Assembly (NCBI GenBank): GCA_963708025.1
Contig: CAVPSB010000013.1
Span: 416,001-480,000, forward strand
Length of the DNA stretch: 64,000 nucleotides
Direction of reading: 5' to 3'
Origin: an uncultured Candidatus Rokubacteria bacterium
GTDB lineage: Bacteria; Methylomirabilota; Methylomirabilia; Rokubacteriales; DASRDR01
Of this stretch, positions 21,001 through 24,000 are shown piece by piece. Position numbers: made by a program. How positions within the stretch are numbered: the stretch's first letter is position 1; the number at the start of each line of letters is the position of its first letter.

Positions 21001-24000
21001 CCGCAGAGCCGAAGCGCTCGCAGTAGGCCAGGGTCAGCGTCGTGAGTCCGCGGGATCCGCATCGCGCCGACCTCGGCGTACAGGCCGTCGGTGAACGGCT
21101 CGCGCAGGGTGTGGACCCGGCCGCCCGACCCGCTGCTGGGCCTCGAGCACCACGGGCTCGTGCCCGGCCCGACGGAGCTCGAAGGCCGCCACCAGGCCGG
21201 CGATGCCGGCGCCGACGATCACGACCTTCTTGGGCCGGCCGTCTCGCCGGGGCAGGCCGGCGCGCGCGGCGGACGCGATCTCGGACGGCATCAGGGACCT
21301 CCCGCTGCGAGGAGCCTACGTCGCGGGCGGCGCCCGCGTCAACGGCTCAGCCGGGTCGTGCTCATGCCGGTCACGCGCCACGCACCGGATACGCGACGGC
21401 GATCGCCCGACACTGTCTCGCGATCTCGGCCAAATGGGTCTGGTGGAACCCGGCGACCTCGAGATCCCGCTCGCCGAGTTCTTCCAGGGTCGGGGTGTCT
21501 GGTCACTCAGGTGACCTCGGTGGGCGTGCGCGACTCTCTCACAGCGGCTGGATGCCCGGCAGGTTGCGTAAGCGCTCCGTGACCGGCCCCGGCCGGAGCT
21601 GCGCGGCTCCCGGGGGCCCGGAGCGGCCCGGGGGCCCCGCGCTCCCGGCGGCGCCGCCCGCACCGCCTCGCCCGTCCCGCCCGCCCTCGCGGCCCCGGCC
21701 GCCGTCGCCGCCGGTGCCGCCGTCACCGCCCGAACCGGCGACGCCGGCGGGTCCGCCGGAGACGTCGGGCCGGATCCACCGGCCGATGTCGGGAAAGCGG
21801 CTGTCGTAGATCAGCTCGATCGAGCCTCCGGGTCCTCCGTCCGCGCCGGGTCCGCCGCTCCCCCCCGGACCGCCGGGACCGCCCGACCCGCCGGATCGTC
21901 CCGGCCGGCCCCGGCCGCCGTCTCCCCCGTTCCCCCCTCGCCCGCCCGACCCGCCGGCGCCGCCGGCCCCACCGCCGGCCACCAGCACGAGCTCCTGGTC
22001 CGGCGAGCGCCAGCACGAGGTCGCGCACCTCGCCCTCGATCCGGATGGCCAGGAGACGCGGGTAGAATCGGGTGCGCACGTAGGTCGCGAAGGCCTGGAA
22101 GCGCGGGCCGGGCCGGCCGGGGCCGCCCGGCCCGCCGGACCCACCCGGTGAGCCGGCAGCCCCGGACGAGCCCTCGCGGCCGTCGTAGCCGGAACTGCCG
22201 CCATCACCGGATGAGCCGCTGGTCCCGCTCTCCCCGACGCCGCCGGCCGTCCGGACGCAGGAGTATTCGGGCTCGTACCGCCGGCTCTCGGTGAACCGCT
22301 CGGGCCGGTAGCGGAGCGCCGTCTGGATCTCGAAGCCGCCCTCGACGGTCGCCAGCATGTCGCCGTTCGGCAGGAAGAAGCCGAACTCGTCGAAGGTCCC
22401 CTGGCGGCTCGCGAACGCGAAGTTGCCGAAGTCGAGCTTGCCGTTCCGCCGCACCTTCGGGTCGCCCCCCCACGTCTCGATCCGGGTCACGCTCGACTGG
22501 CCCTCGAGCCGCGCATCCACGGTGACCCACATCTGCACCGGCTCCCGGGGGCAGATCCGCTTCACCGGACGGCGGATGTCCACCTCCATGCGCTGGACCT
22601 CGGCGTTCTGGAGGCTCACGGTGTCCTCGCCGACGATCTGCCGGTACGCGGCGCAGCCCGCGAGCCCCAGGAGGGCGAGGCCCGCGGCAGCCGCGGCGAA
22701 CCGCCAAGCGTGAGCCGTCCGGCCGACGAGTTCCCGACGATGACCCGCAGACGGCGGTCGAGTCTCGAACATGGCCCCCTCCCCGAGCACACGGTGGTCG
22801 TGCTGTCCGGCCTCGGCCGCCCGCAGGATATCACCCTCGTGCTCGCGGTCCGACGAAACCGAGAGACCAGCCCCTACTCCACTCACGTTGTGTGCACGCC
22901 CTGATCCGCGATACCCTACCGGCCGTGCATGCGCTGGTGGAGCCCGTGGAGAAGGTTCTGCTCGAGACCTTCGAGCGCTCGCTGACGGCTACTCGACCGA
23001 GCTGGAGCCGAGTCTGGCCGTGACGTCGCGTCTGCGCCAGTATCTCGAGCTGGAACGGCTGATGACGGTCTTGGACGAGGATGGTGACCCCGGCGCGGAC
23101 GCGGTGCGCGACGCGATGGATCCGATCTGGTATTCCCTGAGCGACGAGGAGCGGCGGTTTCTCGACGAGCGGACGATCGGGCGGATCGAGTCGGTCGAGG
23201 GTGAGCCATAGCGCAGCGGCCATCCATCTAACCCTGATCGGCAATTCCACCACGCTCCCGAGGATCGCCGCAGTCGCTCCTGTTCCGCTCCCTCTCCCTT
23301 CCAGGGAGAGGGTTGGGGTGAGGGTGTCCAGGGGCGCGTGGTTTCCCCCTCACCCTGACCCTCTCCCCCAGTGGGGGAGAGGGAAAATGGGAGCAGCCCG
23401 CTCCGCGTATTCGGCGATCAGGGCTAAGAGTCTGAAGCCGGTCTGGCGTGCCGCGCCCGAGCAGCATCGCGGGCCTTGCCCGGTTCGGGCTGTCCCCGGC
23501 TGACGGGCTTGACGTTCGGACGTTCCCGGTGGTCTATTGCGCCTACGTCCCCGCTGAGAGCCAACCCCCGCCTTCTCGTTGCCCTTTCCGGGCTGCACTT
23601 CGTCCTCTTCCCGATCCCGGTCATCACGCTCTTCTGGAAGGACCAGATCGGGATGTCGCTCACCGACATCATGGTCCTGCAAGCGGCGTTCGGTCTGGCG
23701 GTGGTGCTCCTCGAGTTCCCGTCCGGCTACCTCGCCGACCGGGTCGGGTACCGGACGTCGCTCCTCGTCGGGGCCGTTCTCTGGCTGGCCGGCTGGCTCG
23801 CCTACACTCGCGGTGCGACGTTCGGGGCGATCGTGGTCGCCGAGCTCCTGCTCGGGGCCGGCAGCGCGTTCGTCTCCGGCGCCGACCGCGCGCTGCTCTG
23901 GGTGTCCCTGGAGGCGGCCGGCCGGAGCGGCCAGTACCCGCGGTGGGAGGGCCGGGCCCGGGCCGGGTCGCAGACGTGCGAGGCGGCGAGCGCCGCCGCC

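What a model noticed while it worked through the whole genome (the two positions that open the first line are those of the whole stretch)
23232..23427. Hairpin repeat family (CCCTCTCCC/GGGAGAGGG) is the REP of DUF559 endonuclease genes
About 110 hairpin units CCCTCTCCC-loop-GGGAGAGGG-GGGTGAGGG, often as inverted pairs, form a repeat family that is not on the list. Across the phylum the same hairpins bracket DUF559 (Vsr-like) endonuclease genes in inverted orientation, a REPtron-like unit built on a PD-(D/E)XK nuclease instead of RAYT.
Evidence so far: 111 units, 19 inverted pairs of one geometry against 1 of the other. DUF559 in 42 of 251 genomes; of 30 loci, 22 have the hairpin on the left, 23 on the right, 19 on both by a strict pattern, and the rest show visible variants.
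(Added by a program. Inside this text positions count along the whole contig: contig position 416,001 is position 1 of the stretch shown here. "Call 12" and the like, gene names such as g00115 and contig names such as C1 are that model's own, and its searches are not shown. The text may have been shortened before it was handed on; [...] marks where a part breaks off. The agent that wrote the report below was given it as the finding of a first reader that could run no searches.)

Follow-up and report, generated by a model that had tools for sequence, protein, structure and literature searches.

The report
Triplex DNA repeat and its nuclease
A long-known bacterial DNA repeat that folds into a triple helix turns out to form the two ends of a small mobile unit carrying an uncharacterised nuclease gene, which gives a testable candidate for the enzyme that spreads the repeat.

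Summary
The repeat is real: 96-102 units and 19 inward-facing pairs against 1 outward. It is not new. It is BoxC/PIT/TMECO, the intrastrand-triplex motif of E. coli (PMC4666352), for which that paper names no enzyme. The link to DUF559 holds, and I found it in none of 10 literature searches. Inward-facing units bracket 41 of 49 DUF559 loci in the phylum and 47 of 72 in other phyla; shifted windows score 0 of 376 and distant homologues 0 of 73. The tail mirrors the purine arm across sequence variants, as a triplex requires. Within one genus, species carrying a DUF559 clade have more dispersed copies of that clade's end type. The whole unit also sits in frame inside 12 unrelated protein families. 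Against: G000 and its family lack the gene yet hold hundreds of repeats, end type tracks the protein tree only within the phylum, and this window's copy rides in a separate TIR/TSD MITE. Best reading: a REPtron-like unit with triplex ends and a Vsr-like nickase. It is not a REPtron member, and activity is untested.

The parts
23290..23324 (+). Triplex-motif unit 1: pyrimidine arm 23290-23298, purine arm 23304-23312, linker ending in G (like TMECO type B), mirror tail 23316-23324
   Evidence: fits the TMECO consensus of PMC4666352
23347..23383 (-). Triplex-motif unit 2, facing unit 1; linker ending in A (like TMECO type A)
23325..23346 (.). 22-nt spacer, at the position where the DUF559 gene lies in filled units
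   Evidence: 'gene-less derivative' is inference
23232..23423 (.). 192-bp MITE wrapping the pair, with imperfect 17-bp terminal inverted repeats (23232-23248, 23407-23423); its transposase is unidentified
   Evidence: IS1380 guess not confirmed
23228..23231 (+). Left copy of the 4-bp target-site duplication (CTAA)
23424..23427 (+). Right copy of the 4-bp target-site duplication (CTAA)
23476..24729 (+). Downstream host gene (417-aa membrane protein; transporter-like by inspection, not searched); context only
   Evidence: homologues in G246 and G247 match this gene but not the element
17997..18023 (.). Hairpin of a second, longer triplex-type family ('B-long', 223 copies in G000)
19802..19828 (.). 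Second B-long hairpin in the window

Best explanation
The autonomous element is [triplex end A] - DUF559 gene - [triplex end B], about 450-500 bp. The dispersed single units and gene-less A+B pairs, such as this window's, are its non-autonomous derivatives, as REPs/REPINs are for RAYT. Shown: the bracket, the triplex-type covariation, the Vsr/EDxHD fold with invariant catalytic residues, purifying selection, many unrelated insertion sites including in-frame ones, and empty, filled and decayed states at one site. Shown by others: the isolated strand folds as a triplex in vitro and stops polymerase. Inferred: when the strand is transiently single (replication, transcription) the end folds; DUF559 recognises the fold and nicks next to it; host repair or recombination then copies the end, the pair or the whole unit elsewhere. 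A PD-(D/E)XK hydrolase has no known strand-joining step, unlike the HUH enzyme RAYT, so host repair is needed. G000 keeps orphan copies after losing the gene, and some were later moved by an unrelated MITE.
For: Bracket on both sides in 41/49 phylum and 47/72 wider loci, against 0/99 and 0/277 shifted windows. Distant DUF559-like domains: 0/20 in the phylum and 0/53 in viral contigs. In genomes with almost no repeats the few copies sit at the gene: G009 3 of 3, G002 1 of 2. None of 120 hairpin-free genomes has a strong gene. Left and right ends share their stem in 56/89 loci against 25.5 expected. End class needs 3 changes on the phylum tree against 14.8 shuffled, and paralogues in one genome carry different classes (G003, G050, G061, G062). 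Within genus g68 (20 species), carriers of a clade have more dispersed copies of its class: D p=0.003, B/C p=0.003, A p=0.049. The single-contig genome G053 has one D-type gene and 74 D, 2 A and 0 B/C copies. 18/19 G000 pairs are one A-linker plus one G-linker unit, the same asymmetry as 16/25 phylum brackets and all five E. coli pairs. folD-xseA is empty in G111 and G095, filled in 17 loci, a gene remnant in G157 and a lone hairpin in G142. In-frame insertions with translated hairpin peptides occur in 12 host families. dN/dS is 0.16, and D44/E55/D57/H61/D68 are kept in 128-129 of 129. The fold matches 3hrl, I-Bth0305I and Vsr.
Against: No cleavage or mobility assay exists. G000 and all 20 family relatives lack a strong DUF559, yet G000 has about 100 A units and 223 homogeneous B-long units that are absent from G228. 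19 genera with >=5 strict hairpins lack a strong gene, and the genus-level link at that threshold is not significant (p=0.11). Within g14+g18, gene carriers do not have significantly more repeats per Mb (p=0.11). Across other phyla, end class does not track the poorly resolved protein tree (17 changes against 20.2; 65/1000 shuffles). The genome-wide class match there is weak (p=0.025, 9/18 B-type cases), and the A/G asymmetry is absent (4/19). 6 of 19 G000 pairs, this one included, lie in a TIR/TSD MITE, which is another route of spread. E. coli K-12 ycjD has units only on its downstream side. Some loci have outward-facing ends.
Confidence: 0.57

Rival explanations
1. Homing parasite. The repeats spread by some other means, and DUF559 is a free-standing Vsr-like homing nuclease that cuts empty A+B pairs and is copied between them by gene conversion, using the repeats as homology arms.
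For: Its closest characterised structural relative is the homing endonuclease I-Bth0305I. There are many unrelated sites and in-frame insertions. Repeat-rich genomes without the gene are common. Filled and empty pairs share the A/B asymmetry.
Against: The gene arrives with its ends in genomes that have almost no dispersed strict copies (G168, G249, G002, G009, G026). Empty folD-xseA and HsdS sites carry no repeat at all. Dispersed copy number follows the cognate gene clade within a genus.
Confidence: 0.22
2. Host repair enzyme. DUF559 is a very-short-patch T:G mismatch nickase (the reading given to Caulobacter VsrA) or a resolvase for triplexes, and the flanking repeats are regulatory or incidental.
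For: PMC12907096 shows that VsrA (DUF559) causes an SOS response in cells lacking a cytosine methylase. Its predicted catalytic residues E73/D102/D115/H119 have the same spacing as E15/D44/D57/H61 here. Purifying selection. Frequent fusion with restriction-modification genes.
Against: It does not explain inward-facing ends that travel with the gene into shikimate dehydrogenase, tRNA synthetase or cobalamin genes, the patchy presence, the decay series, or several paralogues each with its own end class. That paper states that the nucleolytic specificity of VsrA is still unproven.
Confidence: 0.12
3. No functional tie. The repeats are spread by ordinary transposases or MITEs and by replication slippage, and they flank DUF559 only because they are abundant or were once co-inserted.
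For: 6 of 19 G000 pairs are in a TIR/TSD MITE. G000 lacks the gene.
Against: Shift controls 0/376 and distant homologues 0/73. The bracket is kept across many phyla while its sequence changes in concert on both sides. 11 of 19 pairs have no TIR, and the same MITE exists without the pair.
Confidence: 0.06

Closest known systems
BoxC / PIT / TMECO intrastrand-triplex repeat (Holder et al. 2015, PMC4666352)
   Same: Same consensus, same A+B inverted pairs, extragenic placement (90 of 102 units outside crude gene calls).
   Different: That paper reports no enzyme and no association with mobile elements. Here the motif is the terminal repeat of DUF559 genes and comes in at least four co-varying classes.
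REPtron (RAYT/TnpA-REP with REP/REPIN; PMC6006769, PMC3733652)
   Same: A small nuclease gene flanked by inverted copies of a dispersed hairpin family, cognate repeat classes, and orphan families after gene loss.
   Different: The enzyme has the Vsr/PD-(D/E)XK fold, not HUH-Y1. There is no GTAG/CGTC foot, and the end is a triplex. The whole unit appears to move, even in frame into genes, whereas REPtrons are said not to transpose as a unit.
EDxHD homing endonucleases (I-Bth0305I, PMC3239194)
   Same: Same catalytic fold and motif; a mobile gene found inside conserved genes.
   Different: A stand-alone domain of about 105-120 aa without the N-terminal DNA-binding part. No intein is seen at the HsdS insertion. 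Distant phage homologues lack the bracket.
Vsr and Caulobacter VsrA; E. coli YcjD
   Same: YcjD and VsrA are DUF559 members. K-12 ycjD has TMECO no. 9 168 bp downstream and a decayed unit over its 3' end.
   Different: They are read in print as a repair enzyme or as unknown. No link to repeats was seen in the passages read.
CIR and RIME repeats of Alphaproteobacteria
   Same: Recalled resemblance only: some brackets have a hairpin in the linker.
   Different: The source paper was not available; not tested.

Membership tests
BoxC/PIT/TMECO | Consensus of 9-nt C-rich arm, short loop, G-rich arm, 3-nt linker, second G-rich arm | tested here: met
   Both window units fit the consensus in PMC4666352
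BoxC/PIT/TMECO | Inverted pairs made of one type A and one type B unit | tested here: met
   18 of 19 pairs; paper 5 of 5
BoxC/PIT/TMECO | Folds as an antiparallel purine-motif triplex | tested here: inconclusive
   Covariation supports it (opposite A, A 139 / T 138 / C 13 / G 5; opposite G, G 900 of 913). Physical folding was shown only for E. coli oligonucleotides in vitro and not in vivo
BoxC/PIT/TMECO | Extragenic location | tested here: met
   12 of 102 inside crude gene calls at 80% coding density
REPtron (RAYT-REP) | HUH-Y1 transposase gene | tested here: not met
   Bracketed gene is DUF559 with Vsr fold; no Y1_Tnp in G000
REPtron (RAYT-REP) | GTAG or CGTC tetranucleotide at the hairpin foot | tested here: not met
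   No such conserved foot in the flanks printed (inspection)
REPtron (RAYT-REP) | Gene flanked by inverted copies of a dispersed cognate repeat | tested here: met
REPtron (RAYT-REP) | Enzyme cleaves and rejoins the repeat | not testable with these tools
   Needs biochemistry
EDxHD homing endonuclease | Vsr-like fold with E-D-x-H-D catalytic set | tested here: met
EDxHD homing endonuclease | Encoded in an intron or intein, or with an N-terminal DNA-binding domain, and cuts the empty allele | tested here: not met
   Stand-alone domain; the HsdS insert is only ends plus domain; cutting untested
Vsr VSP-repair system | Gene linked to a cytosine methyltransferase gene | tested here: inconclusive
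   Neighbours are mostly unrelated (27 neighbourhoods), but neighbours were not systematically annotated
MITE (window copy only) | Terminal inverted repeats and target-site duplication | tested here: met
   17-bp TIRs and CTAA duplication; identical 4-mers in 3 of 7 two-ended copies
IS1380-derived MITE | TIRs shared with an IS1380 transposase | tested here: not met
   No PF13701 in G000; no end or protein match in 10 relatives' loci

The most novel reading that the evidence does not exclude
A class of bacterial mobile element of its own: ends defined by an intramolecular DNA triple helix, a roughly 110-aa Vsr-like nuclease that reads that fold, and spread by nick-and-repair without a transposase. 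It would be the source of BoxC/TM repeats from E. coli to cyanobacteria and of the many DUF559 insertions in restriction-modification, tRNA-synthetase and metabolic enzymes. It would also show a protein that reads a natural bacterial DNA triplex.
Probability: 0.4. Interest if true: 0.92.

Novelty: new variant of a known kind. Interest (0 to 1): 0.78.

Why it matters
BoxC has been known in E. coli since the 1990s and was shown to form a stable triplex in vitro, but its origin, its patchy copy number and its link to local instability were left unexplained (PMC4666352). DUF559 is a very large family without a proven function (2,603 clusters at E<=1e-30). Tying the two together gives one hypothesis that can be tested in E. 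coli K-12 with ycjD and its 23 BoxC copies. It offers another reading of Caulobacter VsrA, and it extends the REP/RAYT principle to a different chemistry. It would also be evidence from covariation that intrastrand triplexes are under selection in bacteria.

Tried and rejected
Rfam: no family at gathering score, only weak miRNA-like hairpin hits. Promoter/terminator scan: nothing beyond chance. G-quadruplex as the selected fold: disfavoured, because A/T positions of the tail mirror the A positions of the stem and NMR in PMC4666352 favoured the triplex. An alternative bracketed nuclease in G000: only two ordinary metabolic genes lie between inward units 200-2500 bp apart; Y1_Tnp and MTES_1575 are absent, and the one GIY-YIG hit is in a 641-aa frame. 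IS1380 origin of the MITE was suggested from memory by a short frame and not confirmed. E. coli empty site: strains without ycjD carry an efflux operon there, so no clean junction can be read. Metagenome contigs laid on the locus gave no contig spanning an empty allele and are uninformative. The ATGA duplication at filled folD-xseA sites could be a target duplication, or selection to keep both stop and start; it was not used as evidence. The careful tree did not finish and the quick tree has 6 of 126 well-supported branches. Caulobacter vsrA flanks could not be reached. Earlier scan findings were not available.

Full report
1. Observation. The window has two units at 23290-23324 (+) and 23347-23383 (-). 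Each is a pyrimidine arm, loop, purine arm, short linker and purine-rich tail, and the tails face each other. G000 (8.17 Mb, 71% GC) has 96 strict hairpins. A near-identical pattern gives 95, against 1 for the pattern read backwards. With the tail required there are 102 oriented units, against 0 in the reversed genome. Close pairs are 19 tails-in, 1 tails-out and 1 direct, and 18 of the 19 combine a linker ending in A with one ending in G. By a crude gene model, 12 of 102 units fall in genes at 80% coding density; 22 of 89 classified intergenic units lie between convergent genes and 6 between divergent ones. G000 has no DUF559 or Y1 transposase.

2. The interval given. 23232-23423 is a 192-bp element with imperfect 17-bp terminal inverted repeats and a CTAA duplication on both sides. 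Seven two-ended copies were found, 3 with identical flanking 4-mers. Six of the 19 pairs sit in this wrapper, 2 have one end and 11 have none. The same ends occur around unrelated filler and around a short version without the pair. So this copy was last moved, at least once, as an ordinary MITE. An IS1380 parent, suggested from memory, was not confirmed.

3. The repeat is known. It matches the TMECO consensus and Table 1 of Holder et al. 2015 (PMC4666352). Of that paper I read the outline, passages, sections 16, 17, 18 and the first part of the Discussion; its supplement could not be searched. The paper equates the motif with BoxC and PIT, shows by CD and NMR a stable intrastrand purine-motif triplex in vitro but no protection in vivo, and finds all five E. 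coli pairs to be type A plus type B. It reports no association with mobile elements, and 'endonuclease' and 'DUF' do not occur in its main text.

4. The bracket. DUF559 matches 63 of 251 phylum genomes, 43 of them at E<=1e-20. I examined the 50 best-scoring phylum loci and the best 79 of 586 confirmed loci from other phyla. With a general hairpin-plus-mirror-tail finder, inward units stood on both sides in 41 of 49 and 47 of 72 loci, and on at least one side in 48 and 64; 1 and 7 loci with short flanks were set aside. Shifted windows in the same loci gave 0 of 99 and 0 of 277. Outward units on both sides were seen in 14 and 5 loci. Distant DUF559-like domains gave 0 of 20 in the phylum and 0 of 53 in viral contigs; close ones in viral contigs gave 8 of 27 on both sides and 17 on one. 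By eye, 7 of 8 named loci (Sinorhizobium, Azospirillum, Deinococcus, Synechocystis, Pseudanabaena, Neisseria, Sphingomonas) have hairpin units on both sides, only 3 with clean inward geometry; the distant Thermoactinomyces protein has none. E. coli ycjD is a DUF559 gene present in 3378 of 5426 genomes. In K-12, TMECO no. 9 lies 168 bp downstream, a decayed unit overlaps the 3' end, and none is upstream.

5. The ends are triplex-type. Finding hairpins without using the tail gave 207 units in 258 flanks, and 134 had a tail that mirrors the purine arm at 8 of 8 positions under G-G, A-A/T rules. Among the 101 units with other than the commonest stem, 56 fit their own mirror, 9 a direct repeat and 10 the commonest stem's mirror. 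The type-level score was 0.47 against 0.05 shuffled (0 of 5000). Opposite A stood A 139, T 138, C 13 and G 5 times. Left and right stems agreed in 56 of 89 loci against 25.5 expected. Related loci are not independent, so these counts overstate the number of events.

6. Gene and repeat class. In the phylum, end class needs 3 changes on the protein tree against 14.8 shuffled. In the wider set it needs 17 against 20.2, reached by 65 of 1000 shuffles, on a weakly supported tree. All 43 strong-gene genomes have at least one strict hairpin and none of 120 hairpin-free genomes has the gene; this is partly built in, because the bracket itself counts. At genus level the link is p=0.003 for any hairpin but p=0.11 for five or more, and 19 genera with five or more lack the gene. 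In g14+g18, carriers have 20 against 14.8 copies per Mb (p=0.11). The best kin-limited test is genus g68 (20 species, two own copies subtracted): class D carriers have 25-119 copies against a median of 8 (p=0.003); B/C p=0.003; A p=0.049. In 48 genomes of other phyla the match is weaker (p=0.025).

7. The unit moves. The 50 phylum loci fall in 27 neighbourhoods, 17 at folD-xseA. That site is empty in G111 and G095, holds unrelated filler in G174 and G000, a lone hairpin in G142 and a gene remnant with ends in G157. In L032 the ends plus gene form an in-frame insert in the conserved linker of HsdS, where two homologues have no such insert. Seven of 129 loci lie in long open frames. Of 24 long proteins picked from the 150 best library hits, 18 have DUF559 within or fused to one of 12 unrelated host families, with hairpin-like translated peptides beside the domain by inspection. 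PMC9881135 (one passage) lists DUF559 genes as enriched among predicted inversion targets, which fits inverted ends.

8. The enzyme. The model (pLDDT 90.9) matches 3hrl, I-Bth0305I and Vsr. D44, E55, D57, H61 and D68 are kept in 128-129 of 129 sequences, though three of these were in the seed pattern of the wider set. At folD-xseA, dN/dS is 0.16 (xseA 0.13; 48 pairs), and 3 of 129 copies have internal stops. PMC12907096 (passages) shows that a DUF559 protein, VsrA, damages DNA in vivo and reads it as a T:G repair enzyme, while noting that its specificity is unproven.

9. Mechanism. Most likely (0.57): an autonomous unit with two triplex ends and a Vsr-like nickase, with single units and gene-less A+B pairs as derivatives. 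Folding in transiently single-stranded DNA, nicking, and copying by host repair are all inferred. Rivals: homing into pre-existing pairs (0.22), host repair enzyme (0.12), no functional tie (0.06). The main unexplained fact is G000 itself. It has no gene, none of its 20 family relatives has a strong match, and yet it holds about 100 A units and 223 homogeneous B-long units absent from G228. Recent gene loss, non-assembly or another enzyme are all open.

10. Novelty. The repeat is known and the protein family is known. The link was not found in ten full-text searches of the open library, nor in passages or sections of PMC3733652, PMC6006769, PMC3424549, PMC3239194, PMC1189080, PMC12817139 and PMC10969869. 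The library lacks most subscription papers, including the original BoxC, PIT and CIR papers, so priority is not certain. It works like a REPtron in organisation but fails membership on enzyme and foot motif. Verdict: new variant of a known kind, interest 0.78; a class of its own if the enzyme reads the triplex (probability 0.4).

Noticed in passing
window 17997-18023 and 19802-19828; genome-wide: Second, longer triplex-type family (B-long): 223 near-identical copies in G000, 0 in G228, single or in tandem arrays, no inverted pairs, no cognate gene found.
   Followed up: partly
window 23232-23423; window about 46097; G000 C17, C19, C23, C25: MITE family with CCC-starting 17-bp TIRs and YTAR-type 4-bp duplications, with several internal fillers; parent transposase not identified.
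   Followed up: partly
window 445-539 and 31734-31828: Another dispersed palindromic repeat of about 95 nt, 99% identical between the two copies; two MITE copies elsewhere are inserted in its centre.
   Followed up: no
window 26060-26109, 30499-30548, 36803-36889, 527-563: Repeat with a GGCC-N-GGCC hairpin core, sometimes joined to B-long halves.
   Followed up: no
window 62587-63080 and 63507-64000: Tandem duplication with about 920-bp spacing at 79-93% identity.
   Followed up: no
window 20112-21291: An amine-oxidase-like gene appears split over several frames; frameshifts or assembly errors (inspection only).
   Followed up: no
L032, P0060, P0070, P0081, P0085, P0095, P0098, P0110: HsdS is a recurrent in-frame host of the unit, at or near the central conserved linker.
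   Followed up: partly
L210-L214 (E. coli sapF-fabI): ycjD and the eef efflux operon are alternative occupants of one site, as reported in PMC12817139.
   Followed up: partly
folD-xseA loci L007-L041: Synonymous divergence in DUF559 is about twice that of the adjacent xseA (1.08 against 0.48); cause unknown.
   Followed up: no
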